From positions 40,734,001 through 40,798,000 of the forward strand of contig CM114271.1 in assembly GCA_050084515.1 (NCBI GenBank): 64,000 bases of DNA, in the 5' to 3' direction. Within the stretch, counting starts at the first letter, position 1. Every line of letters starts with the position of its first letter. Positions 5,415 to 64,000 of the stretch are shown here, in pieces. The translations under genes and the position numbers were made by a program. The notes under the pieces are model-generated. The model had not been told where the DNA came from. It was given only the letters and a program-made list of their open reading frames with translations, and did not search any database. Origin of the DNA: Blasia pusilla. Taxonomy: Eukaryota.

Positions 5415-7584
5415 CTGGATGGATCCTTTAGTAAACATATAGGATCTACGAATGAAAACCCTTAGATAAAAATAAGGAGAAGTATTTACATTATTAGCAC
5501 TATTTTTCTACGACGGACAACTCAAGGGACAAGCGTTACTTCTGATGCCTTCTTTGTTCGACACGGGTATTTGAAATTAGGAATAAAAAATTGAAAATTA
5601 TCTAAAGAGATTAGTGCTTAACACAGCCATGGGGCAACTCAGTTGTTATTGCAGCGTCAATACGCTTTCGTGGCATTTTTAGATTTTCTTGCGTTTTCTA
5701 ATCGATAAAGTGTCTTTCCTATAATGAATTTATGCACAAGATACGTGGCTTCGAATGAACCATAGGGTCAAACATGATTTTTAACTTGAGTGATGAGCTC
5801 TATCTTCCTAGTGCCTATTCGTCCTCGGGTTAGGTGAAAGTCGGGTCAAACGGGGAAAGACACTTAGGCAAAACTGGATATCCAAACGTGTATTCGAACA
5901 CACTACCCACCATTTTGTAGTGGAAGTGGTTACCATTGTGCAACTATCTCCTCCACACTAGTAAGGAGAACATAACAACTTTATTTTTATTCCACGGAGG
6001 AATTCGGGAGAGGGATCAAGATTAACTAATTCAACCTTGGACTAAACCAACCTGGATATGAATAGACGTAAGGAACCTTGGATATCTCAAGTTTCAACAT
6101 TTTATTTTGTTAAGCCCCTTATACCATTTTGGTTGCCATATTGGTTGTTGAAGTTCCTCATCCTTTTATCCACAAAGACAGTTTATCTATCTCAGCAAGG
6201 ATTTATTTAGGTGTTTACTTAAGTGGCCCTTGGCCAACTTTCCTTGCTTAAGTGCTCCTCTTCTTAAATTTATTGCTTGAGCTTCCCCTTGACCTGCAAT
6301 ATCCCATGGACAACATTATGGTTCCCGAATGGTTCGGTAATTGCTCTAGTGGGGCCTCTATGCCACAGTCCACAGTTCTAACCACAATTGAAGTAGAACC
6401 ATGCAATTTGGCGGGAAACCCGTTTGAAGAGCGGGAGGAAGGATTCACAGGGTTTCCAAATAGACGCATCCTCAGCCTTCACCAAGTTTCTTCACTCATT
6501 TTCAAATAGATGCAAGCACATAAGCTCACGCACTTCAGTTCCAATGTCGCACCAACAGCAGAGGAGGCATGTTTCAACGTTGGCTAATTAAGATAGGGAA
6601 AGGAAATCAAATTCTTAATTTCCACCAACGTGAGTGAGTGTAAGGGTAGGGCAGATTCTTACGAATGAGTCCTGCCTTTACACATATCCAGCGTGCGCCT
6701 TCACTTGTAATACCCGCCGTGGTACATGCAACAAAACTATAGAACCTCAAAGCGATACTAGAGATTATCGTAACTATTTTTGCGGTGAGCAGGGATTTAT
6801 TTGGACATTGAAGTTTTTCCTACGATGTTTGGAGTTGGATGGCAAGGATACTGTGTCTCATAATCAGGAAGATTTCCCGAAATATATTGTTTGGTAAGGT
6901 GGTGACCTCATGGGCTTGAGCACTGTAGAGCAAGAATGTATGAGCATAGATGACCACATTTCGCATTTCAAGAGACAATCTGCTGGTGTGTGGATGTTTC
7001 TTGTGGAGCACAAACTCGGAGCCTCGGAAACTGTTGTTCAGGGAGCTCGGAGACATTTACCCTTATCATGCACCTCCCTTCCACAAGTATTAAACATCAG
7101 GGATTCATCCCACCATGTGGATTTCAATACCAGAGGTGATACCTAGTGCAGTAGTGTCTCTTGAGGATGCGACATCTCGTCTGAATATTAGCGGATCTTG
7201 GTAGACGAGGGATAAGTTGGGATAATATTAGACTTTTGTCCATGAAGGATGCCAACACCTCTTTGACAAAAGATTGAACATGGAACTCGAGGAACTTGAC
7301 ATTCATGTAGCTCTTGGTGATATTCTAAAAGAAGTAGAAGATTTAGACAAAAGTTTGGGTGACAATGGAGGAACAATGATAAAGCTATCAGCTGAAATGG
7401 AGAAACTCGCTATCAAACTAGTGCCTTTGAGCAATAGTGAGGCCCTAGTAGCAAACTCAGAAATCTTTTCAAAAGAGAAGATTGAAAGTATATTTTTTCA
7501 TCTCTATGGAGTGATGAGACAACCTATTGGTTCAAATAGACTTGTAGTTGTAAAGCATGAGCATGAATTTGTAATGCCCTTATG

Positions 7585-18309: not shown

Positions 18310-18953
18310 TATATTTACAAAAGATGGATTAAATTGTCTAAAGGATGAACATGGACGGACAACTGTGGACATGTCGAAGGACATGGATTGCAAGAGGTGC
18401 AAGGTTGCATGTGGAATAACTTGCAAGTGTCCATCTTATGTCCGTCTTATGGAAAGAATTCTCCGTATGGGCCCCACCTTTCTCTTCTTTCTCATTCCCC
18501 TTACTTGCCTTCATGTTCCATACTCCCCCTTTTTTCCTCCCTCCTCCCTCATTGCTCCTCTCATCCTTGCATTGCCTTCCATCATGGACTAAAAGTGTGG
18601 GTCCCACCTCTTGTAACCAATGTCCGTGGATATTTCCAGACTTTCCCGTCCATGTCCATCCTAAGGAAGGACTTGTCCGTTTTTGTGCAACCATGAAGAG
18701 GTGGGTCCCACACTTATAGCTCGTAGTAGAAGGCAATGTAGGGGTGAGTAGAGCAATAAGGAGGGAAAGAAGTGGAAGTGGAATAAGGAAGAAATAAGAA
18801 TGTGCGGAACATGTAGGCAAGTAAGGGGGGTCTTGGGAGGATAAGAAGAAGGGGAACGTGGGGCCTATATGGATAAGTCCTTTCATAGAACGGATGTAAG
18901 TCTATCGACATTGACATGTTCACGAACACACACTTTGTTCATATGCAAAGTTG
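18310..18953 (-). mobile_element. hAT-type MITE, middle copy in inverted orientation
   Basis: Contains reverse-complement family motifs (GGTCCCACACTTATAG; AGGCAAGTAAGGG; GTGGGGCC). Termini are degenerate. Flanks CTTTCTTC / CTTGCCTC match 6/8. Confidence 0.65.
18400..18695 (+). mobile_element. hAT-type MITE, innermost copy (296 bp)
   Basis: CAAGGTTGCA...TGCAACCATG termini. Perfect TSD AAGAGGTG (18392-18399 and 18696-18703). Co-linear with the copy at 50251-50562. Confidence 0.9.
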
Positions 18954-24267: not shown

Positions 24268-25760
24268 AGGTCAGTTGAACCTGGGCGACGAGGGTTGGGA
24301 GGCGGCCAACGCTAAGCGCGTAAGAGTTCATAAGGGATAACAAATACAGGGCAGAAATTGATTAATTCCCTAGATCGTGGCCATGACTTGATGCTCTTAT
24401 TGTGCGTCTCATAGCGACGAAGCTGCAGTAAAAAAGCTCTCACATTGATTTTGATCCTCTACCAATCCGACGCGTGTACTTTTTCAATAACTCGAACATC
24501 TATCCAACTAATGAATAGAATAATTACCCATAATTTTTCCATCCGAGAACGGACTTCAAACGCATGCTGCCGATGGCCGGGTTTACTTTTGAAGTTCACG
24601 CCGTTACCGGGGAAATTCACCCCCACTATGGACGGCCAGGATGCGATTTCGGCGTATCTATGGTCGCCCGCTGCGTAGCGGTGCTTCTCCGGTTTCGAGG
24701 CCGTCTTCGGAGGTGAGTACGACCCTATGGGACCTTAAAAGACCCCTTCCTAGACTCCACACTCATCTCATCGCTTTAGACTCGACTCCGCTTCGACTTT
24801 CTTTCTCTCTTCCGCTTCCGCTCTCAACTCCTCTGATTCTCCACTCAATTTTCACTTCCACTCTTCCTGCACCTTCCTTCACGAGGTGCTTCTTCCTCCG
24901 AGCCTTCAGTGTACTTCAGTTTAGCTCAGTTCAGTTCAGCCCAGCCCAGTCTCGAGTCGAGTGAGACGGAGCCGCTTGAGAGACGGAGCTCGTACCTCTC
25001 TCGTCTCGTTCGGGTCCACGATTCAGTGAATGAGCGAACGAGGGATCGAATTGAGTAAGAAACGGAAGTCGTGTATACCCAGAGTGTTTCCTAGAGAGCT
25101 ACCCGGTGAGGATTCTGGTCACAAGACGTTCGTTCTCGAAGAGGGTACGAGTTCGTATTGACAATTGGCCCTCTTGGTCGAGAGATAGGGGAGAGTTTTA
25201 GAAGAAACCATATCTAGACATATATCTGAGCGGCTGCTCCTTCTGATATAGGGTATAATTAGGTGTATCACATGCCTCAAGCAAACTGTTCATCTAGTTC
25301 CTTTAATTTGTGAACGAGCCTCCTCAAGAGTCGAGTGTTCCGTACTAAGATTTGTTTAAAAGCATTTGCTTACCACCTTTCCAAATCCCGGAGTCCACGG
25401 TAATTGAAGTCGAGCATCGTGTTAGAGTTTGACCTTCCTCTGTTTCTTAGAACTGGAAATGCAGGGATTGAGCCCGGAAACTGCCAATTCTGTATTCCAG
25501 TAATTTACTCACCCAAGACATTGGCTCAAATGCAGAGCGGTTGTTAATCCGACCTTGTGCATTGACTACCGCAGCCATCTGATCCAATAAACTTCAGTGA
25601 GTGTGTAGTTTATTAGTCCAAACGAGTTTACGAGCTCGAGAAATCTTTGACGAGCTCAGTATTCCACTTTCATTTGTTCCTGAACAGAGATACTACACCC
25701 TCAGATTCAAGAGAGCCGACAGCTTCAGCCTTTAGGTTCATCCTCCAGTTTCAAGTCATC

Positions 25761-27383
25761 ATGGCAGTCTCGAGTCCAGCAGTGGCAGTTCCTCCATGCG
25801 AGGCCAAATTGCACTCCTTCCACAGCGGCAAGAACGCTCCGCCGCATCAGACTCAGACTGGTTTGTGGGAGACGTATGGGGAGAATGGGAGCGCAGGTGA
25901 CCTCGGTCTGGTGTCCATGGTGCCATCGATGGACCATCAGCAGCAGCAGGAGCGGGAGCAGGCTGCTGCGGGAATCCTGCATTATTCAATGCATCCTTCG
26001 ACTTCGGGATTGTCTCGCAATGAGTCATTCGACTCTGTCACCTCGAAGGACTCATGCACGCCATCCTTCTCGACTGGATCTCCGGTAACAGTGCTTCTAC
26101 CTGAGGCATACTCCAGCGGTACTTCCTCAATGGGCTTGTTCTCCACGAGCATGTCTACTCACGGGTGGGCAAACCCTCAGATTAGCAGCAAGAAGTCCAG
26201 CCCGGAGCACGAGGACGAGTCCGTGCACGAACTTTGGATGCATCAGGAGCAGTTCGTTGCCCACTGCGACCAATTTCTCGCATCCCCGGGACGGGGAACC
26301 TTCTCGTCATTGATGCCCGAATTGACTTACAGATATGACGATCAGGGCTGTGTGAACAACAGCAACGACTTCTCGTCAGTGACCGATCTGGAATGCCTGG
26401 TGCCATCGTCCCACCAAACGCACATTTCCACCACATCGTGCTCTCCAATTCCAAACGAGTCCCAGCAGCAAGCGACCAAATCACCGGAGTCCGTCGGCAA
26501 CACCGTCCACAGCTCTATGCAGCAGCAGGATTTATGCCAGGAGTTCCTCGTCGTCTGCGATGGAACATACTCCGAGCAGACTCCTCCCACCGTCTGCAAC
26601 TCCGGCGTCAACCAAAGATCCGAATCTTCATCGCTGTTGTCTCCGCCGTCCGCGAGGCGCCGTCTGAGCTGGTCAGAATACCAGCTGCCGGAGCGATGCA
26701 ACCAAGGCCCTTCATTGATCCCGGAGAGCCTCCAATTCAATGGCTTCAGCTCTCAGGCATACGATCGCCGCCTACTGGAGAATAACTCCATGAACGACAT
26801 TCAGTACCGCGGCGGTAGTCAAGAGAATGGCGGCAGTCTGAAGCGGCCCTACTCCGCGATGCAATCGACTTGCAGCATGTCCACTTCTGCGGCGGCCACG
26901 GGCCAAAGCTCTTTCCTGAATTTCGGAGCGGGAGGAGCGCCGAAGGTTAATATCAATCAGGCTGCGAGCAACCACCAGCAAGACGCGGCCGCATTGAGCG
27001 CGTTGCTGTACAAGACGCAAGGGAGCGAGCTGATGCAACAGATGCAGCAGGCGCAGGGAACGAGCAGCTCGGATTCAGCTCGGCAAATGCCGCCCCCGAA
27101 GCTGCGCAGGAGGCACGGCACCGCCACTGATCCGCAGAGCATTGCCGCCCGCACGCGGAGGGAGAGATTCAGCGACCGTATACGCATTCTGCAGAGCCTG
27201 GTCCCCAATGGCGAGCGCTTGGACACGGTGTCCATGCTGGGCCACACTTTGGAGTATGTGCGCTTCCTGCAACATCAAGTGTGGCAGCTGTACAATGGCA
27301 ACGACGACGCCGGAGTGTTGCCCGATTCGGAGTGTCGGGAAAAGTGGAAGGAGTTCATGGACGCGCAAACGGTGATGGCTTGA
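25761..27383 (+). CDS. bHLH transcription factor, subfamily-VIII-like (RSL/HECATE/LAX1-related), intronless, ~540 aa
   Basis: First ATG at 25761 (the ORF track starts at an upstream TTG). Long Ser/Gln-rich N-terminus. C-terminal '[55 protein letters not shown]' fits the plant (A/S)TDPQS.AAR.RRE.....L..LVP.G...D...ML....Y..FL pattern. Confidence 0.92.
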
Positions 27384-39017: not shown

Positions 39018-39563
39018 GCTCTCTCACACACTCATTCTCTCTTTATAAAATAAGATCCAATCTCTCTCACGACACCATAGTTCTCACATGTGTGCACTCT
39101 CACATGTCTCTCTCAATGTCAAACCAAACCCACTCTCTTAATGAGAGTCTTGGGTTACACACACAAGGCAAGCAAGACCATAGCTTCGCCGCCTCATGCC
39201 AAGAGGTTCAACAAAGAGAGAATGAGTTCTTAAGCTCTCTATCCTTGAGGTATATCCCTCCCCTCTCCCAAGCTCTTTCCATGGTAACCTATGCTTCCAA
39301 GTCACCTCCTTGGCTCTTGACCTCATGTAGGAGGTCAAGTTCCACTTACCAAAAATAGAAATTTGATCATCTACTCAAAATGGTACTTACCTAAAATAGT
39401 AAGTTCCTCAATATGGCTCCAAATGAGTCGAAACGAAAGGGAAACTTGCTCTCTCAAGTTTCCTAGGGCCTGAGTAGGTCATCCTCGACCTACTGAGGGT
39501 GTCCTCTACTACTCACGAAGGCACTCTACTATATCTCACCGATCTATCCTAAAAGACGTGATA
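39018..39563 (-). repeat. 3' LTR (possibly truncated at its left end)
   Basis: Aligns to 47561-48182. Its minus-strand start is TATCACGTC vs TGTCACGTC in the other copy. Confidence 0.85.
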
Positions 39564-39877
39564 GCTATCGTGCGCATATACATCGTTACATAATATACAT
39601 CGTTGTCACCAAACACACACACAAACACGCACGATCCCATGCTTACTCATGGCATCCAAACGAGACAAAAAGTACCAAAATATCTCCAATCGCCTCCCTA
39701 GCTGGTGGTCAGGTCCCTCTAACTCCAAATAGCCATCTATCCCTACCTACCATGATATACATCTCTCGGACGCTAAGAGGAGCAAGAAGGCCGGGTGCTC
39801 ATTAGGCCCCATCGTTAGTCGCCTTCTTGTCATCCATGTCACAGACACAAGTCGGAATATAGAACTACCTACTCTAT

Positions 39878-40020
39878 GTACATCTGAGACACATCCATCA
39901 TCCCTCAGGAACCCTAGTGAGAGGTGGCGTCAAACATGCCATATGCCATCCTCTCGAATACCCATCACAGACTAGCATAGTGGCTGCATCACGGGCGGAA
40001 CCACACAACATACACCGAAA
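39878..40020 (-). pseudogene. PHD finger at the C-terminus of the integrase
   Basis: CMLCGSARDAATMLVCDG(Y)SRGWHMACLTPPLTRVPEG*WMCLRC: C4-H-C3 spacing with one Cys->Tyr change and an in-frame TGA before the final W.C..C. Confidence 0.88.
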
Positions 40021-41200
40021 GCTTGCAGGAACTACTGCTAAGCTCAAATCAAATGTACCGTCAATGTTTGAAAGATGACATGGCGCACACTTACGCACAT
40101 GGTCCTTCCAAACCATATCATCGCGTCCCTCCAATAAGAGAACATCGGATAGCAAAACCTCACGCACTCTCAAGATGGTACGCCCTGCAATCACATCCAA
40201 CGTTGTGGGTGCCGTCTGCTACAAGTAGACATGGTCTCCCTCATGAAACCTCCGGATAGTAGGTCGATAACCACCTCTCCGAATAGTCGCATACCTCAAC
40301 GTATCCCGATGTTGCGCAATCGCCAAGTTCTCAAACGCCATGGGCATCACTCTCCGAAACAACTCAGCCCTCTGAGAACATGCTCGCATCCATACATCAG
40401 GGTCATCAAGGTTCAACACCTCACCAACATCTCGATGAATGATCGCAGGTAAATCTCGCTCTTGGCCATAAAGCAACAAGTACGGTGAGAAAGACGCTAA
40501 GGATGCATGCCTGTTGAATCTGTATCTCATCACCAACCATGGCAACTAAAGATCCCAATCTCCTAGGTGACCTCTCTTCAAGCCATACTTGTGTAGTCCT
40601 CTCTTCACCGTATGCACAACCCGCTCTGCTAGTCCATCCGCCTCAGGATGATCTCGCAAAGTAGTGCGGTGGTCGATCAGTGCCTGATCACACAAGGCTT
40701 GAAACTCCTCGCGGAACTCTGTACCCTGGTCTATCAACACCTCAACAGGTGCGCCGTAATGACTCAGCACTCGATCTAGGAAGGCATACGTTACTCCCTC
40801 ACTCGCTTTATCAGGCAATGCAACCAACTCTATCCACTTTGAGAAGTGCTCAACCATCACCAACACATAACGACTATGATGCTCCGTCAAAGGCAAAGGT
40901 CTTGCAAAATCCAAACTCCATCTATAACCTAAACCCATGATCGAAAGTGGATGCAACTGTGGAGTGAGAGCATTGAACGATGCTCGAGCTTGATCACACA
41001 CCATGCATGTGGCAACAAACTGTTGAACGTCAATGTGCATGCCTCGCCACCACTACTGAATCTGGAGCAAGTTGTACGTCCGCTTCACTCCAAAATGATC
41101 CAACTCCTCGTGGGCATGATGCACCAAACATGCTCTCTTCAAAGGATGAGGCACTACACGCACTCTACCATCCTCCCACACTCACAACATATGTGTTCCC
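40020..41200 (-). pseudogene. Retrotransposon integrase
   Basis: HH-CC zinc finger (HHELGHFG...CMVC) and DDE triad WSLDFA / LIDQG / GLAER in ORF 40546-41040, continuing in 40219-40545. Confidence 0.92.
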
Positions 41201-41509: not shown

Positions 41510-42100
41510 GAGTTACGGCTCAAACCATCTGCATCTTGGTTGAGCGTCACAGGTCTATGCACCACCTGGAAGTCATACTCTTGCAACAAATGAGCCCACC
41601 TCACAAGCTTCCTTGTAAGCTTGTCCGACCTCATCAACCACTTAAGTGGTTGATGATCACTAATGATGGTAAAGGGATTGCCGAATAGATAACATGTGAA
41701 ATATGCGACAGCCCATATTGCATCCAAGCACTCACCCTCATACAAGCTATACTTCGTCTCTACAACGTTGTTCAAGCGACTATTGTAAGCCACCATGAAC
41801 TCTCTACCATCATCGTCATGCTAGGTGAGCACAGCTCCAAGCCCCAATATGCTCCAATCGGTATGCAACTGGAAAGGACGCCCCTTGATCGGTCTCCTCA
41901 ATATGGGAATCCGTCCTTGAGCATCTAAAATGCTCTCTTCTGCTCATCTCCCCAGTGCCACTCCTGGTCCACCTTGGTCAGCAAGGTCAACGGCTTTGCA
42001 ATCGAACAAAAAACCCTTGACGTACCGTCGATAGAAGTTCGCCAATCGCATGAATGCACGAACCCGACTCACATCTGTAGGGCGTGGAATGCGTGAAATA
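41510..42100 (-). pseudogene. RT connection and RNase H
   Basis: RPFQLHTDWS..GLGAVL, VAYNSR, EGECL.AIWAV, SDHQPLKWL, ADGLSR motifs. Frameshifted. Confidence 0.9.
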
Positions 42101-42117: not shown

Positions 42118-43065
42118 CTACACACCAAAGCCCCTTGAGTATATCGTATGACCCAGGTACTTAATGTGGTCGTAGAAGAACTTGCACTTGTCTGTATGTA
42201 GCTTCAACCCATGTAACAGCAATCGTCGAAATACCTCTTGTAGATGTCGCTCATGCTCATCAACTGTGGCGCTAAACACTACAATGTCATCAATATAACA
42301 CCTACCAAAATCCAGACCTGCCAAGGTCCTATCCTTGACCCTCTGAAACTCAGCCAGGGCATTCTTTAACCCAAATGGTAAGAATTGCCACTGGTACAAG
42401 CAGTCCTTCCTGTGAGGATCGATGCCCCAAAATATCATCTTCTGCCTATCCTCCAATCTGATAAGCAGTTGATGATATCCGGCTAGAAGATCTAACGAAC
42501 TGAAGACCTTTGCATGCCCAATAGCATCAAAGATCTCCTCAAGAGTGAGCATGGCATACCTATCGGACTTTTTTTTTCGATTGATAGGTTGGTAATCTCC
42601 ACACATCTGCCTATCCGTCCAGTTGTCATGCACATCCTTCTTGGCGGGCATGATAATGGCAGATGCATACTCTCCATGCGACATCTCCACTAGTCCTGCG
42701 CCAACCAAGTCTTGGCTCCTACTCTGAATGAGAGGCGTGTCCATGTCACTATACCTGTAGGTTCGTCGGAAGATCGGCGTGTCACTCGACAACTCAATGC
42801 GGATCCCTGGATCCTTCAGCGTACCCAAATCATGCATACTAAATGCAAAACAGCTCCTATAACTCCTAAGGAACTGGTGTATCCGACGCCGCTCTCCTCC
42901 TGTCAACTTAGGGCTCATATCTGCCTCCCAAGTCTCCATCGTGACTACGGTATGACTCTCCGGTGTGGATTTTGGTGGTTGGTATGGTGCAACCCCGTCT
43001 TGAAAAATAGAAGTCTCATCTCCACATGCAGTATTTGGAACCACGCTCGATGTTGTGGCCATCAT
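42118..43065 (-). pseudogene. Reverse transcriptase (gypsy type)
   Basis: MCGDYQPIN, FSSLDLLAGYHQ, LPFGLKNA, CYIDDIVVFS, KCKF...YLGH motifs in a 315-aa ORF. Confidence 0.96.
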
Positions 43066-44589: not shown

Positions 44590-44900
44590 CCAGTAATCCA
44601 GGGAAAACCCCATCGGGTATAATATTGCTCCACCAACCAAGACATCGTAGGACTCTTCATCAGTCACTATCACCTTGGCTCACACCACAGACTCATCTGT
44701 AGGATGTCCCAGGAAAATCCTCACCACGACCTCCTGTTGGGTGATATACTGTGTGGTATTCGCTCCACCCAAGGATGTCTGTATCCAAAATAGACAACGC
44801 TCCACATCGGCTCTCGTCAAGCTCAATCCTCTGAATGACGCATTCCCCAACATCAAGGGTTGTGTTTCTCAATCCAACAAGACGCACTGCGAACTAAAAG
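44590..44900 (-). pseudogene. Aspartic protease (degenerate)
   Basis: CVLLD*ETQPLMLG (degenerate D-S/T-G active site) at ~44850-44890 and C-terminal YDVLVGG at ~44630-44650. Confidence 0.7.
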
Positions 44901-45029
44901 ATCTACCTCTTGGACTCACCAACTGGAAGACCTCTCCCCGGTTATCCAACAAAACAACACCAGGAGAAGCCATGGCATGCTCTATTGCGGGTCTAGCGGG
45001 CATCTCCACCATCCTAGCACCCGCAGCCT

Positions 45030-45850: not shown

Positions 45851-46841
45851 TTCTCAAAATCCTGAAAGGACGCCGTGATGGCCCTCGTGCCCCTCTCACA
45901 AAATCACTCTAAATCTCACGAGTAATCCCTCAATCACTCAAACTAAACATGCGGCACTCAATCTACACTCTTTCATTGAGACGTGTGTTGTGCGGCAACA
46001 AGCAGCGTGGTGCAAAAATCAACTGATCTATCGTCTCATCGACAAACCATCCTCAACTCTAGACATCGCACAATGGTCTATGTCTCCTAAACCCATACAT
46101 CATCAATACTCCTAGCATCAGCACAAAACCCAATATCCCAAATAACTTCCCAATACCCGAAAATCCCTCATACGTGCAGGGTAAGAGACCAGAATGGGTA
46201 ACTTGATAATAATGTCGATGTTGATCCTCGGAAACTGTAAATCTCAACCCCAACTCAGTCGTGGAGACAACTCCTCCAGTCAGCAAGTCGTACTCCTCTT
46301 GTACTGACGCTGCTCAAACCTCCTCGATGTGTGGTGCAAGTCCAACGGTCTGGTGCGGCACTGGCGGCACGGAACGGCTACAAACGGCACGGCACTCGGG
46401 AATGGGATGCGGCACTCGGCGGCATAACCTCCTCAATCAGCAATTCACATGCTCTGCTCCTTAATGGAGAAGCGGCTCCGCGATCGAGACGGTGCGGTGC
46501 GGCGAGGAGCGGCACGGCGCACCAATCGACGGCGCGTTGCGGCTACGGGCGTCACAGCATGGTACTCGATCATCATTGAGCGGCTACAAATCACAACATA
46601 GCAACATGAAATAAAAACTCAAACACCATAACCCGAGATCACCTGCCATCACTGGTTGATGACGAAACTGCAATGACGGTGGCGGCCAAACCAAAGTACG
46701 TGGTGGCGGCGCAAGTCAGAGAATCAACGATGGTCGTGGAAGACCCTAAACTCCTTAATGGCAAAAATGGAAATCAAGGGTGGACAACGACTGAACGCAG
46801 CTCTAAGCAGCGCTAGGTGGAGGCGGCAGCCAACGGTGGAC

Positions 46842-47000
46842 GGTGGACCGTTGACGGCGATGGTTGACCGTTGATGGTGACGGCGGACGATTGATGGTGA
46901 GGATTGACCGTTGATGGTGAGGATTGACCGTTGACTATAGAGTTGACCGTAAACGGTGATGGTTGATAGTCGACAGTGAAGGTTGGCCGTTGACGGTGAC
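46842..47000. repeat. ~20-bp tandem repeat (GGATTGACCGTTGATGGTGA-like), ~8 copies
   Basis: Repeated TTGACCGTTGA cores at 20-bp period in the element's leader or LTR region. Confidence 0.8.
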
Positions 47001-47560: not shown

Positions 47561-48182
47561 GCTCTCTCACATACTCATTCTCTCTTTGTAAAATAAGATC
47601 CAATCTCTCTCACAACACCATAGTTCTCACATGTGTGCACTCTCACATGTCTCTCTCAATGTCAAACCAAACCCACTCTCCTAATGAGAGGCTTGGGTTA
47701 CACACACAAGGCAAGCAAGACCATAGCTCCGCCCCCTCATGCCAAGAGGTTCAACAAAGAGAGAATGAGTTCTTAAGCTCTCTCTCCTTGAGGTATAATC
47801 CACCCCTCTCAAATACTCATTCTCTCTTTGTAAAATAAGATCCAATCTCTCTCACAACACCATAGTTCCCACATGTGTGCACTCTCCCAAGCTCTCTCCA
47901 TGGTAACCTATGCTTCCAAGTCACCTCCTTGGCTCTTGACCTCATGTAGAAGGTCACGGGCCACTTACCAAAAATAGAAATTTGATCATATACTCAAAAT
48001 GGTACTTACCTAAAATAGTAAGTTCCTCAATATGGCTCCAAATGAGCCGAAACGAAGGGGAAACCTGCTCTCTCAGGTTTCTCGAGGCCTCGGGAGGTCA
48101 TCCTTGACCTATTGAGCCTGTTCTATAGTACTCACAAAGGAGCTCTGGTAGATCTCATCGATCTATCCTAAAAGACGTGACA
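47561..48182 (-). repeat. 5' LTR (portion alignable to the 3' LTR)
   Basis: Minus strand begins TGTCACGTCTTTTAGG at 48182. Contains a 76-bp insertion (47811-47886) absent from the other LTR. Confidence 0.85.
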
Positions 48183-49525: not shown

Positions 49526-50840
49526 TGTCGTGACCCTCATAACCAAACAAATACCAAACAGACACTCAACGAAACATCACAACTTTAGTGAGTTCCCTCC
49601 TCGATGATTGCATTTTGGAGAGGTCTTTTGGAAAAGTCCAAGAGACAAAATGCGCAATACAGTTTGTGTGTTTCATGCGTTTATGGTCGCGACCAAGAAA
49701 CCTGCACCAAATGCGAACCAAGACTTGAGATGAGTTGAGTCTAGGAAGGTTGGTTATCAACTTGCCAAAGAGGTGAGAACGAGATTTGAAATGCGACTAG
49801 CATTTGGGGATTTTGACTGTGTTTTGGACCATAACGTTTAGTCCCAAGATTGCGTTTGGGACAAGTAAGGTGGCGTTGGAAATTTTACACCAAGACGATT
49901 ACAATGCACCAAAGATATTAGAAAATGCTGAAGCAGAGCTTGAGATATTTTCCAAAAATGATTGCAAGAGGAGTCAGGTCGAGGGCCAAACTGAGGGGCC
50001 CGACTGTCTTTCCTCAAAGTTAGGGGAAGGTCGGAGATCTCCTGAATTACTAGTAAGGGGAAGTGTCTCCAAGGATTCTTGGAACTCGAACTCCACTTTG
50101 AGCACCGAATGGGAGTTTGGCGTTGGAAACCCAAACCTGATCCAAGGGAGTGGATTTTGTAAGCCATACTTGGATTCCAACCCGTGACTCATCTTTGTGA
50201 GTCGCAATTAGGGGCTCATTGGATGTCCATTGGACAGTTGGGACCGCCAGCAAGGTTGCATGTGGATAAAGCCCGTGTCCGTGGACTTATGTCCGTTCTA
50301 TGGAAGGACTTGTCCATATGGGCCCCACCTTTTCCTTCTTTCTCCTTCCCCTTACTTGCCTTCGTGTTCCATGCTCCCCCGATTCTTCCTCCCTCCATCT
50401 CCACTCCCTCCTCCTTCATTGATCCACTTATCCTTGCCTTGCCTTCCATCATGGATTATAAGTGTGGGTCCCACCTCTTGGAACCCATGTCCATAGACAT
50501 GTTCAAACTTGTCTGTCCATGACCTTCCTAAGGAAGGATTTGTCAATTTTTATGCAACCATAACCGCCAAGCGTGCAAACGCAGTTTGAGGTTCCTGAAC
50601 CAACCAAAAAGTTTGTCCCAAATCTTGAAAGACTTGCCTCTATTGTAAACCGTGAAACTAGGAAGGTTGAGCTTGATGAGAGGCCGAGTCGAGAACTTGG
50701 AAGCTTAGAACACTAATTGACCCAGACCCGACTAACGTGAGTGTGTGTTTGGGTGCAGATCAGGATTGAGAGCATGTCCTACTGAATGCATGCTTCTGCA
50801 ACACTAAAGATTTACGTTCAAGGAGAGTAGGCGCACGACA
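49526..50840. repeat. Candidate LTR (host element or solo LTR), interrupted by a MITE
   Basis: TG...CA ends with a 7-bp terminal inverted repeat TGTCGTG / CACGACA. Lies upstream of the host gag on the minus strand. No second copy in the window. Confidence 0.45.
50251..50562 (+). mobile_element. hAT-type MITE (312 bp)
   Basis: CAAGGTTGCA...TGCAACCATA termini. TSD ACCGCCAG / ACCGCCAA (7/8). Co-linear with 18400-18695. Confidence 0.88.
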
Positions 50841-57757: not shown

Positions 57758-57904
57758 CTGCAAAATATTCAGGCATTCTCACGATAAGTAATGTTGCTAC
57801 CAAACCACACTAGTTACACCACTTTAGAAGTGTTTGCTCTCCACGAGGGGAATCGCTAGATAGTTTGAAGGGGAGCTTCTCTCCATACAAAATTCAACAC
57901 TTAC

Positions 57905-58905
57905 TTCATGTTTTGGTGGTTTCGTTACGACGGACTTCGGAGGAGTGGATGTTGCGGCAGGACGGCGGTCTTGCTCAGACACCATTCTCCAATCCTCGAC
58001 TGCAGAAGGCCCCTCATGCTCGACGAGTGTTGATTCAGATTTCTGTAGGACGGCGGTGATGAAGTCACCGGACATTGATCCTTTAATGCTCGCCGGTGCA
58101 GAACTGTCACCTACCTCACCTTGTCGGACGATCTGGACTTCTGCTGGATTTCTTACAAGAGCCTCGGAATCCACATCGTTACCTTGCTGGACTTCCAAGC
58201 CTGAGGCAGGAGGGCCAAGACTGCCTTCTGAAGAGAGATCAGTAGCAGTTAATGCTGCACTTCCTTCCAAAATATGAATCGCGGCTCCACACTCAACATT
58301 ACTGGGTCCATCGGAAATTTCCGTCACTAGACTTTCTTGTGTCAAGTCTGTATGCAGAACCCGCGTTTCACAGACAAGCTCTCCTGCAGATTCGACAGTC
58401 TTCTTTGTGTTTGGACTGCTAAAAGAGGTCATTTTCACTGATTCAGCTGGCCAATCTTTAACGATAATGTGCTTCTCTGCAATATCTTCAGACCCACTGA
58501 GATCCTGAGGACCCATGATACAAGAATCACTTTCTGAAAAGCAAGCGACACTCTCAACAGAAGACTGGTCGTTAGATTCGCTAGAGTTGCCAACTGCCGG
58601 CCCAAATCTCAGAGTGGCATTGGACACATCTTCAGAGTTCTTCAGAAACACATCGCTGGTGTCCAACTTATCCTTGGTCTGATTTTCACCATCATCTAAT
58701 CTCTCTGTGCCCTCGCTTACACTATTCGACAAGATATTTGTAGATGAGTCGTCTTCTTGGGCATAACCTGCCACACTTTCCTCTGGAAGCTCACTCAACT
58801 CGCTTTCATCGATGACAGTGATGACTCTCTCTGAAGTATTCCACTCTTCATCTTCTTGCACCTCCTTTTCGAATGGACTCTCTTCTTGAGGCATATCTGC
58901 GTTCC
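57905..58905 (-). CDS. Acidic repeat protein, internal exon
   Basis: Within the 363-aa E/D/S-rich ORF. TGTAG acceptor ending at 58906 and strong GTAAGT donor at 57904. Confidence 0.8.
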
Positions 58906-58955
58906 CTACAGTCACGAAGAAAGAATATTGGCAAATAGTTTACTTCTTGACTAAC

Positions 58956-60555
58956 GTCCTAACCCGACAAGGTGTCCAACATCACTCATAGCAATCAAAT
59001 TATTGTTGGAGATTTTCAATGAATGGAAATCTTCATTACCTGGTTCGTCGACTGGAGCAGCCTCGGTGCCACGAATTTCTGCTCGTAAAGTTTCCACCAA
59101 TTTCCCGTGTAATTGAACGTCATCAATTGCACTGACTTTCTCGCAAGGGCTCTCCTCATTTTGGTCTTTTTCTGGAATCGTTTCCTCAACTGCTGAGACC
59201 TCTGTCCTGATCTGAGTATGGAAATGAATTGAGGCCTCGCCAATTTCTTTGTCCTGAAAGACCTTCTCATCCATTTCAGGTCTTCTCTCCAGAACTGTTA
59301 CTTCAGATACTAAATCGTCTGGTTCCATCCCCTCTTCTTCCCCAACATCGGCTGATGATGATTGTCTTAGAGCTATATCTTCTCCCTTCTCTGGGATATT
59401 GCTTGCGACTCCTGAATCTGGAGTTCCGTTTTCTACCGTTACACCTGACTCTGCCAAATCATCAACCAGTCGAGTGCTCTTAACTTGCCATTCCTCTTGG
59501 TTTCCTCCAATTTTAGAGCTCCCTCCTGAGTTATCTGACTCAATACTAGAAATATGTGAGATTGTCTCATCTGACAGCCCTGCCACGGATAGAGTAACTA
59601 AGCCATCTCCAGCAGCTGTTTCTGAGTCTGAGATGACCTCTGGCTTCTCTCTTTTGTCTACAGTTTCAAAACTCCCCAGCATCTCCTGTGCTTCGGAGAC
59701 ATTTTCCAAGTTTGCATTCGCTTTCAGAGAGGTCAAAAGACTGTGTTCTCTGGCATTTCTAGCCACACCTCCAAAAGTCCCAAACTCATCCTCAGAAGCG
59801 CTCACGTCTGCCATGGCTGGCAATTCAAGGGCCTCATCAACTGTGTCTTCTGCACTTCCACTATTTTCTCCATGATTTCTTTCTGCCTCTTGTGAACCTG
59901 TACCACTATACGTCTCAGTTGGAGCGATAACTAGAGGCACTTCACCCTCGCCTTCCATCTCCACACCAATTAAGAGCATACTTTCAACCTCTGCGAAATC
60001 TTTTGGAGCCTCCATCTGTGAAGTTCCATCACTACCCACATCATCTTTGCTGACACTGTCGACTACCTCTCGTTCTCCTTCAAGGTTTAGGCATTCCTCT
60101 AATCCCGTTGAAATCAAGCTATCAAGTTTGGCTGAATCTTCTACATTCTTCAGGTCAGTCACCAGGGCGGAATCTTGTGTCTGTGACTCCGTAGTCGTAT
60201 GCTGAGTTAAATCTGCGACCTCAATTTCCACCCCAGGCAGATCCGCTTTGTCATTGAAGGTGAAATCATCTACTTCAATGTCCTTTGGAACGTGTGTCTC
60301 GGCAACCATTTGCAGGGTCCCATCATGTACCCGTGAAACTAGAGGAGTGATTTCTGCAGGATCTTGTGGAATCTCTGATGCTCCTGGGACAGAATGGCCT
60401 GGAGAACTTAACTCAGTAGCAGCCCCCAGACCCTGCTCTTCGACTCCAACCTCCGCACTTTCATGCTTCTCACCTGCACTTTCCCAATCACTGCCTTTAT
60501 TAAATCGGTATAGATTACCTTCCACAAAATCCAAATTCAAAACTTCTGAACCAGC
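58956..60555 (-). CDS. Acidic repeat protein, internal exon (boundaries approximate)
   Basis: Within the 550-aa E/D/S-rich ORF. Several phase-1 AG acceptors at ~60545-60590 and phase-1 GT donors at ~58955 or ~58986. Confidence 0.78.
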
Positions 60556-60930
60556 TATGCCCGAGCACGAATTTGTTAATAAGAAACCTGGGTGAGGTGA
60601 CAAAATAAGAATTACGCAACCTGAGCCAATCCCAACTCATCACGCAAGTAGTCCAGGTTGGCACACTGACAGTGTACCATTTTTTCTACAAATCAGGGAG
60701 GATTAAGAGTACCTCTACATAAGCTAGAACAAATAGGAACACCGATTTTCAGAAGAAGTCTCAGAACAAGAGAAGAACTTAGGAGTAAGCAAGATAAATT
60801 TAATCTGTTGGCTTTCGGAGTCCACTGAGAAAAGGGGCGAACAGACAGCCAAAAGTTTGGACGCAAAAACGAAAGAACCAACCTCCTAGCGAGTTGAGGA
60901 AACATATATACATTCCATCTGCAGATACAC

Positions 60931-63900
60931 CTTTTGATTCACTACATTTGATTTTCCCTTCCGACTGCAACTTACCCCCATCCGGCAGAGTCTCTCCGTG
61001 TTCATATATTGACACCCCACCGGAAGGCAACATAGGTTCAGTTGAGACTTGTTCCTCTCTTTCAAGAAGAGATTGCTCTCTCTCAAGTGAGCTCGTTGCA
61101 TTCCTGTCAGGTGAGGTTTCAGCTTCCCTTTCTGCTGCGTCAGGCATAGAAGCAACTTCACATTCATCTGCTGATATCAAGAATTTCATCTCAGCTAAGC
61201 CTGCCGTCTCAACCCCTAATCCAACAAGTTCGGCTGGAAAGTCAGATCCCTCTTCACATTGCTCGTCTAAACTCTCGTTAATGTCAATCAAAATAGGAGA
61301 TTCATTTTCTTTTCGATCCGATTCTCCAGCCTCAGCCTCCAAGTTCTCACTCTTGTCAACTAACGTGGGGAAGTCAACTGCTCTCACATCCGATCCCGTG
61401 GCTCTAGATTCCAGGTTGTGACTCATGTCAACAATCTCAGTGATTTCATCCGCTGCTTTAAGGTCAAATGATCGGCCCTCAACTTCCAAGTTTTCAGCTA
61501 CAGAACTGACTACAGTTTCCAATTTATTATTACTTTCAATCGTAGTATTAGATTCATATGGTGCAACCAGCGCTCGTCCTTCAGCATCCAAGTTCTCCTT
61601 GTTATCAAATGTGATCGCAAATTCATCTGTTAGGAGAGCTGACGCTTGCACTTCATCTCCCAAGTTCCATTTCCTGTCAAGTAAACTGGAAGATTCATCT
61701 GCTGTCACATCTGATACTACGGCTCCAGTCACCAAGTTCTCATTCCTGTTGCTTATAATAGCAGAATCATTAGCTGTCACTTCTAATGCTCCAGCTCCAG
61801 CTCCCAAATTCTCCTCTCTATCAACTCTGGTTTCAGATTCATCCTCTGTGACGGATGATGATCCCGCTTCGAATTCCAACCTCTCCTTCCTGTCCCTTGT
61901 GATCTCAGAATGATCTGCTTTGACATCAGATACGTTTGATCCTCCCAGTTCACTTTCCACGTTCTGAGTGCTGTCAAACATAATTGGAGTCTCTTCTTCT
62001 TTCGACACGTATGGCGCTCCAGCTTCAGCGTCCAGGTTTTCAATAGGGCTAGATGAAGTGGGAAACTCATCTTCTCGGACTTCGACTTCCAGGTTCTCCT
62101 TCATGTCGTCCTCGGTCGGAGATTCGTCCTCTCTCACATCTGATCCACCTTCAGCTTCCCAGACCTCAGTTCTGTCAAACGAAGTGGAAGATTCATCTTG
62201 TGCCAGGACTGATGGTCGGACGTTTGTCTCCGACTTCTCATTTACGCCATCCAGAATATCGGAATCCTCTGCAACTAAATCTGACGCTGTAGCTTCAGCT
62301 TCCGAGTTCCTCACCCTGTCAACGACTATCTCAGATTCATCTTCTGTTACATCTGATGTCACCCCAGTTACCAAGTTCTCATTACCATCAGCCAAAGAGG
62401 GAGATTCATCTGCTTGTACATCTGGTACTCCAACTACTGTCTCGAAATTTTCAGCCGTGTCACCTGTGACGACAGGTTCACCTGATGCCATATCTGGTGC
62501 TAACACGTCACCTTCCGAGCTCGGAGCTTCAGCTTCCAATTCCACTTTCTCATCTACCAAAGCAGGAATTTCATCTTCTCTCGCAACTGACAATCCCAAT
62601 TCGGTTTCCAGCTTCTCTTCCCTGTCAACTGTGATTTCAGATACACTTCTTGTGCCATCAAATCCTACCACTTCGGCGTCCGAATTCTCTTTCAGGTCTC
62701 CAATGATTTCAGGATCATCTACTCTGACATCTGAGGTTTCTAATTCTCTCCATACACTTTCCACGTACCGAGGGCCGTCCTTAACAACAGAAGACTCGTC
62801 TTTCGATAGTAAAGCTTCAGCCTCCGGGTTCTCTGTCAAACTAGCTGAATTGGGAAAATCCTTTCCTCGGACATCTGCTCCACTCGCTTCCGAGCTCTCC
62901 ATCCTATCAACTGAAGCACGAGAGTTATCTTCTTTCACGTCTGATGCTTCAGATTGAGCTTCCAAATCCTCCTTCATGTCAACTACGATCTCAGTTTCAT
63001 CTTTCGCTCCTGCTATTTCCTCAAAAATTTCAATCTTGTCACCTTCAAGGACAGACTCACCCAATGTCGAATCTGATGCCGACACTTCATCGTTCAAGTT
63101 TTGAATCCCGTCAACTTCACCTGGGCATTCACCGACGCTCACATCTAGTGCTCTGGTTTCAAATCCCAAGGTCTCAACCATATCAGATGTAAGAGGAGAA
63201 TCATCGTCTTGCATACTTGATGCTCTCACTTCAGCTTCCAAGTGCTCCTTCCCGTCTACTGGAGTCAGAGATTCATCCTCTTTCGCACCTGATGCTCCTA
63301 CTCCAGATTCCGGATTCTCCTCCTGGTCAACTGGCGTTCCAGATTCATCCACTCTCACCTTGGATGATACCACCTCCCCTTCCAAGTTCTCCTTCGTGTA
63401 CCAAGTGACCTCGGAATCAACCACTTTGACATCTGATACTTCTGATTCTTCCCGTTCACTTCCCACGTTTTGAGCGCTCTCAAGTGCACTAGGAGACTCA
63501 TTTTTCGGCACATCCGATGCTCCAGCCTCAGCCGCCAAGTTGTCGGTTCCACAAGTTGGAAGAGAATCATCTTCTCCAACATCTAATGCCATCTCTTCAG
63601 CTTCCAAGTTCTCTTTTCTGTCAACTGAGGTCGGGGATTCCCCATCTATCGCATGTGAAGCTCTAGCTTCAACCTCCAAGTCCTCCTCCCCGTCGACTAC
63701 GGTCTGAGATTCGTCAGGTACGACATCTGATGCGCCCTCTTCAGCTTCCAAGTCCTCGTTCCTGTCGACTGAGGTGGAAGATTCACTCACCGTGACATCT
63801 GACGGCCGGATTTCAGCTTCCAAATCCTCATCCCTGTCGACTGAATCGGGAAATTCATCTGCTTGGACATCTAAAGCTCCGCCTTCTGTTTCCAAGGTTC

Positions 63901-64000
63901 CATTCCTGCCATTTATGGAGACAGACTCATCTGCAGTCACATCTGATGCTCCCACTTCTCGGACTTCCGATGCACCAGAGTCATCTTCCAAGTTCTCCAC
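60931..64000 (-). CDS. Acidic repeat protein, large exon with ~24-aa repeats (open at window edge)
   Basis: More than 1000 codons without a stop. Repeat unit like ENLEAEAGASDVTEDESPTSVDRK. Candidate phase-1 donor AAAG|GTGTAT at 60930. Confidence 0.88.

What the first reader, a model, noticed from the sequence alone, without database searches (positions are those of the whole stretch)
39878..40020. PHD finger rather than chromodomain on the integrase: reader plus writer in one element
Seen: a C4HC3 PHD with the typical PPL..VPEG.W.C..C ending directly follows the integrase C-terminus. Known: PHD fingers commonly read the H3 N-terminus and H3K4 state, and chromoviruses use a C-terminal chromodomain for targeting. 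Inference: a PHD plus a DNMT in one polyprotein echoes the ADD(PHD-like) + MTase logic of DNMT3. It could couple integration-site choice to de novo methylation.
Basis: partly seen in the sequence, partly recalled or inferred. Interest (0 to 1): 0.72.

Follow-up and report, generated by a model that had tools for sequence, protein, structure and literature searches.

The report
PHD-tipped integrase in methyltransferase-carrying retrotransposon
A broken copy of a common liverwort jumping gene ends its integrase in a histone-reading zinc finger and also carries a DNA methyltransferase, but a built-in leaky stop codon and separate losses in relatives suggest the two parts work independently rather than as one reader-writer unit.

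Summary
The PHD is real (PF00628, 38 bits) and ends the integrase frame. In this decayed copy the fourth ligand is Tyr and a stop interrupts it; 23 of 30 best genomic matches keep all eight ligands without a stop. The host is a liverwort. The element (gag-PR-DNMT3-like-RT-RH-IN-PHD) fits the KnitGypsy-Dnmt3 kind, and its clade also occurs in chlorophytes and Closterium. The finger resembles readers of unmethylated H3K4. ADD-like coupling is not supported. An in-frame TAG in a readthrough context lies between DNMT and RT in 24 of 25 covered copies (the window is the exception), so most DNMT would be made without PHD. Relatives also keep PHD after DNMT loss or inactivation, and keep DNMT after PHD loss. 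PHD on Gypsy polyproteins and reader-plus-writer retroelements are in print, and this scan noted the same pairing in two other genomes. Not found in my searches: the leaky stop; split repeats (A1…B1A2B2) combined with TG…CA ends, 4-bp target duplications and a palindromic CA-GC-TG junction; and algal relatives with an added amino-methyltransferase-like domain. Verdict: new variant of a known kind.

The parts
39880..40014 (-). PHD finger at the integrase C-terminus (fourth ligand Tyr, internal stop at 39900-39898 in this copy)
   Evidence: PF00628 38.2 bits; translation and coordinates; intact in most other copies
39874..39876 (-). family-wide stop ending the pol frame one residue after the last PHD cysteine
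   Evidence: 25 of 26 covering copies; coordinates
40660..40926 (-). integrase core (rve, DDE)
   Evidence: PF00665 E 3.6e-12
40981..41130 (-). integrase zinc-binding H2C2 domain
   Evidence: PF17921 E 3.4e-12
41575..41880 (-). RNase H
   Evidence: PF17917 E 2e-27
42142..42606 (-). reverse transcriptase
   Evidence: PF00078 E 2.9e-22
42976..42984 (-). site of the family's in-frame TAG followed by CAA CCA (CAR-YYA readthrough context) between DNMT and RT; this copy alone has a sense codon here
   Evidence: TAG in 24 of 25 covered copies, 23 with CAACCA; found by a stop tally over 1468 codons
43276..44145 (-). DNMT3-like C5 cytosine methyltransferase domain (motifs I, IV, VI, VIII, X; frameshifted and interrupted in this copy)
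   Evidence: PF00145 E 2.8e-8; all 29 PDB hits of another copy are DNMT3A/B/C; motif coordinates
44600..44960 (-). aspartic protease region (approximate; broken here)
   Evidence: matches other copies and the named protease region of relatives
47590..48182 (-). 5' repeat A1, beginning TG at 48182 (inner end approximate; carries an 84-nt internal duplication)
39566..39693 (-). repeat B1 (128 nt), about 180 nt after the PHD stop
39562..39567 (-). B1/A2 junction, a decayed form of the family's CA-GC-TG palindrome
39018..39563 (-). repeat A2 plus a short stretch matching the sequence after A1; the terminal B2 and the right target duplication are missing in this copy

Best explanation
The PHD is the last domain of the integrase of a Ty3/Gypsy-type element of the Gypsy-DNMT3 kind. 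It most likely tethers the integration complex to nucleosomes by binding the N-terminal tail of histone H3 that is unmethylated at K4 (or with K4 little sensed), steering insertion away from H3K4me3 promoters. The methyltransferase works separately. In this family it ends the first frame (gag-PR-DNMT), which stops at a leaky UAG, so it is made at Gag-like levels, probably packaged in the particle, and most plausibly methylates the element's own cDNA. RT-RH-IN-PHD is made only by readthrough. Shown: domain order, conservation of the finger, the conserved stop and its context, integrase-type ends, separate losses in relatives, sense transcription of the family. Inferred: histone binding and its specificity, targeting, readthrough itself, the DNMT substrate.
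For: Finger under selection: pairwise dN/dS among 28 copies is 0.37 for PHD, 0.37 for IN core, 0.48 for RT and DNMT, 0.76 for the DNMT-RT linker. The ligands are kept from this liverwort to chlorophytes. Best PDB matches are CHD4, PHF12, Lid/KDM5 PHD1, DPF3, BHC80, ATXR5, AIRE and UHRF1; several of these are described as unmodified-H3K4 readers (PMC3241642 passages). In 180 parsed clade PHDs the position two before the His is Gly in 166 and Trp in 0 (that this is the aromatic-cage position is recalled), and Asp follows the third Cys in 164. Stop: TAG in 24 of 25 covered copies, against 221 stop cells in 35,054 overall. A stop followed by CAR-Y sits at the homologous place in 16 of 33 scoreable metagenome loci, all in the 72-83% group. 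CAR YYA after UAG is the plant readthrough signal (PMC2754532, PMC5397192 passages). Independent losses. Catalytic Cys and Glu are kept in 166 of 179 DNMT domains. Sense reads cover the whole element.
Against: No binding or insertion map was tested. This family lacks an acidic residue within six positions before the first Cys (1 of 30 copies), a feature of unmodified-K4 readers, although 132 of 180 clade PHDs have one within five positions. The stop is a sublineage trait: 17 of 33 loci (the 50-58% group) lack it, 6 with no stop at all in that gap, and only 2 of the 16 match strict CAR-YYA. Isolated KnitGypsy-Dnmt3 DNMT showed no activity in yeast (the authors call this inconclusive; PMC5890265). 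Co-retention of both domains is high (64 of 69).
Confidence: 0.6

Rival explanations
1. ADD-like coupling: the PHD recruits or switches on the element's DNMT at the chosen site, so integration and de novo methylation are linked. Most plausible in the chlorophyte subclade, where DNMT lies directly upstream of integrase.
For: Both domains are ancestral in the clade and co-occur in 64 of 69 scoreable relatives. The PHD class matches what ADD reads (recalled). In 137 chlorophyte-type proteins DNMT ends a median 211 residues before the IN core, so one mature DNMT-IN-PHD protein is possible there. A readthrough product would hold both domains.
Against: In this family DNMT lies before RT, about 1,090 codons from the PHD and on the other side of a conserved stop. 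PHD is kept without DNMT or with a dead DNMT, and DNMT is kept without PHD. The finger resembles KDM5/CHD4-type PHDs; no DNMT3 or ATRX chain is among the best 60 of 86 PDB hits shown.
Confidence: 0.15
2. The PHD is needed but does not read histones: it binds a host factor or DNA, or stabilises the integration complex.
For: Purifying selection shows function, not ligand. The family lacks the acidic residue just before the first Cys. Some basal relatives have strongly diverged Cys/His arrays (P0077, P0316).
Against: The residues expected to hold H3 Arg2 and Ala1 are conserved: Asp after the third Cys in 164 of 180, and the P-x-G before the last Trp in 142 and 134 of 180 (their roles are recalled). 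The best solved relatives are H3 readers.
Confidence: 0.2
3. The PHD is a passenger with no present function.
For: It has been lost in at least one subclade, and the window copy is broken.
Against: dN/dS 0.37 among copies; all eight ligands kept across chlorophytes and this liverwort.
Confidence: 0.05

Closest known systems
KnitGypsy-Dnmt3 of Klebsormidium nitens (PMC5890265; abstract, passages, section 3 parts 3-4 and a supplement text search seen; figures not seen)
   Same: DNMT3-like domain in a Gypsy Pol frame; DIRS-like repeat structure with Gypsy domains; purifying selection on the DNMT.
   Different: The text never mentions a PHD, a leaky stop, target duplications or the junction (Fig. 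4c not seen). It treats the capture as specific to the K. nitens lineage, whereas this clade includes a liverwort, Closterium and chlorophytes. No K. nitens sequence was compared.
Gypsy-7a_cRei of Chlamydomonas reinhardtii (10.1101/2022.06.16.496473; passages and section 17 read)
   Same: [quoted passage not shown]
   Different: Conventional LTRs, no DNMT named in the text; the PHD position was not seen and its relation to this clade was not tested.
EpiLTRs of Cymbomonas and Euglena (10.64898/2026.05.21.726589; parts 1-3 of 5 and passages read, supplements closed)
   Same: Chromatin reader plus DNA methyltransferases in one LTR element.
   Different: Their reader is a chromodomain and their DNMT is sister to DNMT4.
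Chromoviruses (PMC6317226, PMC6673714; passages)
   Same: Histone reader at the integrase C-terminus, probably for targeting.
   Different: PHD instead of chromodomain, a separate RT-RH-IN clade, split repeats.
Ngaro/PAT tyrosine-recombinase elements (PMC8547959; passages)
   Same: A1-[ORFs]-B1A2B2 split direct repeats.
   Different: This element has a DDE integrase, TG…CA ends and 4-bp target duplications, not a tyrosine recombinase.
DNMT3 ADD-MTase module (recalled)
   Same: Reader of unmethylated H3K4 and de novo MTase in one gene.
   Different: Not adjacent, separated by RT-RH-IN and a stop; canonical C4HC3 PHD rather than an ADD fold.

Membership tests
PHD finger (PF00628) | Pfam score above the curated cut-off | tested here: met
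   38.2 bits for the window, 47.4 bits for copy L003; cut-off 24
PHD finger (PF00628) | eight C4HC3 ligands in one open frame, in the window copy | tested here: not met
   seven of eight ligands and an internal stop
PHD finger (PF00628) | eight C4HC3 ligands in one open frame, in the family | tested here: met
   23 of 30 best matches
unmethylated-H3K4 PHD readers | no aromatic-cage Trp | tested here: met
   0 of 180 clade PHDs have Trp two before the His; Gly in 29 of 30 G000 copies; the position is recalled
unmethylated-H3K4 PHD readers | [quoted passage not shown] | tested here: inconclusive
   1 of 30 G000 copies within six residues, 29 of 30 at 7-12 residues; 132 of 180 in the clade within five
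unmethylated-H3K4 PHD readers | binding to H3 1-10 lost on K4 methylation | not testable with these tools
   needs a binding assay
Gypsy-DNMT3 (KnitGypsy-Dnmt3 kind) | DNMT3-like domain with catalytic motifs in the Pol region | tested here: met
   all 29 PDB hits are DNMT3A/B/C; DNMT in sense in 17 of 20 long copies
Gypsy-DNMT3 (KnitGypsy-Dnmt3 kind) | DIRS-like repeat structure with Gypsy domains | tested here: met
   B1-A2-B2 in 23 of 27 copies; PR-RT-RH-IN order
Gypsy-DNMT3 (KnitGypsy-Dnmt3 kind) | groups with the K. nitens element in a tree | not tested
   no named K. nitens sequence came back or 61
Ty3/Gypsy LTR retrotransposon | PR-RT-RH-IN order, TG…CA ends, target duplication | tested here: met
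   4-bp duplication perfect in 13 of 14 copies with both ends, one mismatch in the other
Ty3/Gypsy LTR retrotransposon | two complete LTRs flanking the coding region | tested here: not met
   the 5' end carries only A; B is duplicated at the 3' end
Ty3/Gypsy LTR retrotransposon | primer binding site and polypurine tract | not tested
   no host tRNA set was searched
chromovirus | chromodomain at the integrase C-terminus | tested here: not met
   no PF00385 at E<=0.1; the frame ends after the PHD in 25 of 26 copies
Ngaro/PAT (DIRS order) | split direct repeats A1-ORFs-B1A2B2 | tested here: met
Ngaro/PAT (DIRS order) | tyrosine recombinase instead of rve integrase | tested here: not met
   rve and H2C2 present; 4-bp duplications
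DNMT3 ADD-MTase module | reader adjacent to the MTase in one polypeptide (recalled) | tested here: not met
   about 1,090 codons apart with a conserved stop between
EpiLTR | chromodomain plus DAM plus DNMT | tested here: not met
   the window family has neither chromodomain nor coding room after the PHD

The most novel reading that the evidence does not exclude
This is a green-lineage-wide, largely unrecognised clade of integrase retroelements that replicate like DIRS/Ngaro elements. Split repeats template a circular cDNA, and integrase cuts the palindromic CA-GC-TG junction on both strands to give two ready-processed ends and a 4-bp duplication. A DNMT3 made at Gag level through a leaky stop methylates the cDNA inside the particle, while the scarce IN-PHD places it on H3K4-unmethylated nucleosomes. 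In the chlorophyte branch DNMT3, integrase, PHD and an amino-methyltransferase sit in one stretch and could act as a true reader-writer integrase.
Probability: 0.3. Interest if true: 0.75.

Novelty: new variant of a known kind. Interest (0 to 1): 0.45.

Why it matters
The PHD itself is a known type of add-on. The family matters for three reasons. First, it is a high-copy, transcribed DNMT3-carrying retrotransposon in a land plant, which makes the open question of what retrotransposon DNMTs methylate testable in liverworts and green algae. Second, the leaky stop predicts that the methyltransferase is an abundant particle protein rather than an integrase partner. Third, split repeats with integrase-type ends point to a replication route between DIRS and LTR elements, and they would defeat LTR finders that need paired LTRs, which may explain (inference) why passage searches of the REXdb paper found no mention of PHD or methyltransferase.

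Tried and rejected
Predicted complex of DNMT with PHD from the relative P0006: no verdict (score 0.00, alignment not used); no evidence either way. Single-sequence fold of a PHD copy: pLDDT 40, not used. Foldseek of the IN-PHD-tail model listed only integrases; the wide search reached the tail. The RT-RH homologue search was crowded by multi-copy gene models from unrelated hosts, which were used only as outgroups. RNA structure after the leaky stop: z -1.14, nothing special. The look-up of sequencing runs listed no holder on record as RNA; three raw RNA runs were laid instead. Four metagenome loci scored DNMT-minus. Two are internal deletions, one is 5'-truncated and one has a gap over that region, so none was counted as a DNMT-less lineage. 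P0007, P0207, P0219, P0220, P0230-P0232 and similar proteins start just before RT and cannot be scored for DNMT. P0074, P0280 and P0283 show only weak DNMT remnants and were left unscored. Insertion targeting could not be tested: 7 of 14 5' flanks match other fetched loci or the window, with no genome baseline. Cluster look-ups gave no organism names for ten close relatives. Scan look-ups by place, sequence and a second word set found nothing. Chromovirus, DIRS and EpiLTR membership rejected (see membership tests).

Full report
Observation. The minus strand at 40014-39880 encodes a PHD finger (PF00628, 38.2 bits, cut-off 24) in the frame of the integrase zinc-binding and core domains. One residue and a stop follow it. 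A PHD-spaced pattern occurs once in the window and in 0 of 30 triplet shuffles. This copy is decayed: the fourth ligand is Tyr, a stop interrupts the finger, two more stops lie between it and the integrase core, and the DNMT is frameshifted. So 'C4HC3 directly after IN' is true of the family rather than of this copy.

Family in the host genome. The IN C-terminus plus PHD gave 150 scored matches at 79-86% identity besides the window's own (149 others), out of 14,942 first-look candidates. A DNMT query gave 116 scored of 16,799. These are lower bounds, not copy numbers. In the 30 best matches (window included), 24 show all eight ligands, 23 of them without an internal stop, and 7 have one open frame from the IN core through the finger. 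Of 20 copies fetched as 10-kb stretches, 17 have the DNMT in sense between PR and RT, 1 has it inverted, and 2 lack that region. None of these 20 had an open frame over 786 codons. All 29 PDB hits for the DNMT are DNMT3A/B/C. Pairwise dN/dS among 28 copies is 0.37 for PHD, 0.37 for IN core, 0.48 for RT and DNMT and 0.76 for the DNMT-RT linker. A neighbouring bHLH gene matches Marchantia (52%) and Riccia (41-44%) best, so the host is a liverwort. Three stranded RNA-seq runs from one study laid 5,578-6,027 reads each, from 10-12 million records read, along the whole coding region, mostly on one strand (element sense if the library is of the usual kind) and mostly 85-95% alike. This shows family-level transcription in an organism labelled like the best holders; it was not shown to be the window's species.

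Ends. The element does not have paired LTRs. It reads TG[A1, 514 nt]…ORFs…[B1, 128 nt]-2 nt-[A2][B2]CA. B1-A2-B2 is present in 23 of 27 copies. Among 14 copies with both ends, 13 have a perfect 4-bp target duplication and one has a single mismatch. In the 18 of 27 copies where my pattern found the internal junction, the spacer is always two bases: GC 8, AC 6, GT 3, TC 1. AC and GT are what cytosine deamination of CA-GC-TG on either strand would give (inference). The same layout, junction and 4-bp duplication appear in metagenome loci down to about 51% protein identity: 5 of 6 distinct loci with both ends are perfect and one has a mismatch. A1/A2 divergence is 0.010-0.068 in the 8 copies my filter kept, with C-to-T-type differences at 13 of 152 CG, 9 of 117 CHG and 53 of 1,649 CHH sites. 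The window copy lacks B2. A1-ORFs-B1A2B2 is the Ngaro layout (PMC8547959, passages), and KnitGypsy-Dnmt3 is described as having DIRS-like repeats with Gypsy domains (PMC5890265). A cut after CA on both strands of the palindrome would give two processed integrase ends; integrase cleavage of a palindromic circle junction is reported for foamy virus (PMC1180852, abstract only). That route is inference.

A leaky stop splits writer from reader. A tally of stops over 1,468 homologous codons found two near-fixed ones: the end of the PHD, and one between DNMT and RT. The latter is TAG in 24 of 25 covered copies (3 of 28 not covered), 23 followed by CAA CCA; only the window has a sense codon there (42984-42982). 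CAR YYA after UAG is the TMV-type readthrough signal in plants (PMC2754532 and PMC5397192, passages). Among 33 scoreable metagenome loci, 16 (all 72-83% identical) have an in-frame stop followed by CAR-Y at the homologous place, though only 2 match strict CAR-YYA. The other 17 (50-58%) do not, and 6 of them have no stop in that gap. Some loci repeat the same insertion, so they are not all independent. The near-intact L083 has a 1,369-codon frame ending in DNMT, a single TAG, then a 1,047-codon RT-RH-IN-PHD frame. In this sublineage DNMT therefore belongs to the abundant first product and PHD only to the readthrough product (inferred; readthrough was not measured).

Relatives. An IN+PHD search listed 120 of 266 hits; 115 have a DNMT-like domain by a profile built here, although precomputed Pfam marks only a minority. 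Named hosts are Haematococcus, Tetrabaena, Pleodorina, Chlamydomonas eustigma and Scenedesmus, and, in an RT-RH search, Closterium. A search with RH-IN only gave 150 hits. I dropped 39 as outgroups or multi-copy models and 42 as too short to score. Of the remaining 69, 64 have both domains, 3 scored DNMT without PHD (one of these has a diverged PHD and one looks broken) and 2 have PHD without DNMT. In an RT-RH-IN tree of 131 of 192 eligible proteins these form one clade (support 0.95-0.98). Basal members have DNMT before RT plus PHD, and a derived group has DNMT between RH and IN. PHD is missing from a Closterium-containing subclade (support 1.00) and from P0089, whose DNMTs keep the catalytic residues. 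DNMT is missing from P0045/P0084, P0261 and P0248, and lacks the catalytic Cys or Glu in 12 database proteins; all of these keep PHD. Of 179 DNMT domains, 166 keep both residues. The pairing is thus ancestral and usually retained, but separable in both directions.

What the finger reads. The best of 86 PDB matches are CHD4, PHF12, Lid/KDM5 PHD1, KAT6A, DPF3, BHC80, ATXR5, AIRE and UHRF1. Readers of unmodified H3K4 lack the aromatic cage and have acidic residues before the first Cys and a hydrophobic residue before the third (PMC3241642, passages). In 180 of 215 clade PHDs that my pattern parsed, the position two before the His (the cage Trp position, recalled) is never Trp, the residue before the third Cys is hydrophobic in 177, Asp follows it in 164, and 132 have an acid within five residues before the first Cys. 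The host family has that acid within six residues in only 1 of 30 copies, so K4 may be weakly sensed. Binding was not tested.

Mechanism. Best explanation (0.6): the PHD tethers integrase to nucleosomes without H3K4me3, while the DNMT acts apart, probably on the element's own cDNA, as the 2018 paper proposed for DIRS-encoded DNMTs. Rivals: a non-histone role (0.2), ADD-like coupling (0.15, most plausible in the chlorophyte arrangement), passenger (0.05).

What is known. DNMT3 in Gypsy Pol: PMC5890265 (its text and three supplementary text files do not mention PHD; figures not seen). PHD in Gypsy polyproteins: Gypsy-7a_cRei (10.1101/2022.06.16.496473, section 17), called a common accessory domain in Chlamydomonas (PMC8557442, passages) and widespread (PMC6673714 and 10.1101/2021.11.30.470311, passages). 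Perez-Alegre 2005 and Kapitonov and Jurka 2003 were seen only as citations. Reader-plus-writer elements: EpiLTRs (10.64898/2026.05.21.726589, parts 1-3 of 5; its supplements are closed and could list these algal elements). PMC12344493 (passages) adds nothing on PHD. Passage searches of the REXdb paper, whose set required paired LTRs, found no PHD or methyltransferase (PMC6317226). This scan noted the PHD-plus-DNMT pairing in two other genomes. Searches found no paper on the PHD-DNMT3 pairing, the leaky stop, or split repeats with target duplications in a Gypsy element; subscription journals, Repbase reports and theses are not covered.

Verdict. The extra findings (leaky stop, split repeats with integrase ends, green-lineage range) make it a new variant. 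Interest 0.45.

Noticed in passing
P0011, P0012, P0019, P0046, P0341 and others: Many chlorophyte-type relatives carry, after the PHD, a small beta domain and a Rossmann-fold domain most like amino (N6-adenine-type) methyltransferases (123 of 233 ingroup proteins have both PHD and this tail by my profile; best non-integrase match Z 11.7, rmsd 3.4, 144 aligned). This gives DNMT3 + IN + PHD + amino-MTase in one frame.
   Followed up: partly
tree of RT-RH-IN and of DNMT: DNMT sits before RT in basal members and between RNase H and integrase in a derived, mostly chlorophyte group; distances in the two trees correlate (Spearman 0.65), consistent with one capture and a later move.
   Followed up: partly
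P0008, P0009, P0010, P0013, P0028, P0041, P0069, P0233: Two groups (named members from Pleodorina and Tetrabaena) keep a DNMT-like domain without the catalytic residues, next to an intact PHD.
   Followed up: partly
L033:1954-8717: Eight RNA reads in three runs skip 6,762 bases with CT..AC ends (GT-AG on the element strand), joining the 5' region to the integrase core; a spliced RNA or a deleted copy.
   Followed up: no
L073 and L075: Internally deleted derivatives that run from repeat A1 straight into the end of RT, with the same breakpoint; possibly a non-autonomous subfamily keeping RH-IN-PHD.
   Followed up: partly
L032, L043, L044 5' flanks: Three of 14 copies have 5' flanks that match many other copies of the family, as expected if they inserted into older copies.
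   Followed up: no
window 57824-64000, minus strand: Three long open frames (371, 561 and over 1066 codons) with acidic 72-nt (24-residue) repeats and no Pfam match.
   Followed up: no
window 25617-27383, plus strand: bHLH transcription factor gene, best match MpBHLH33 of Marchantia polymorpha at 52%.
   Followed up: yes
window 46839-46997: 20-nt tandem repeat array in the element's 5' region.
   Followed up: no
window 50286-50561 and 18435-18694: A second, older repeat family flanks the element on the right and recurs 32 kb away.
   Followed up: no
P0004, P0057: P0004 has a second PHD near its N-terminus; P0057 has an SH3 and a weak chromodomain after the PHD, perhaps a fused gene model.
   Followed up: no
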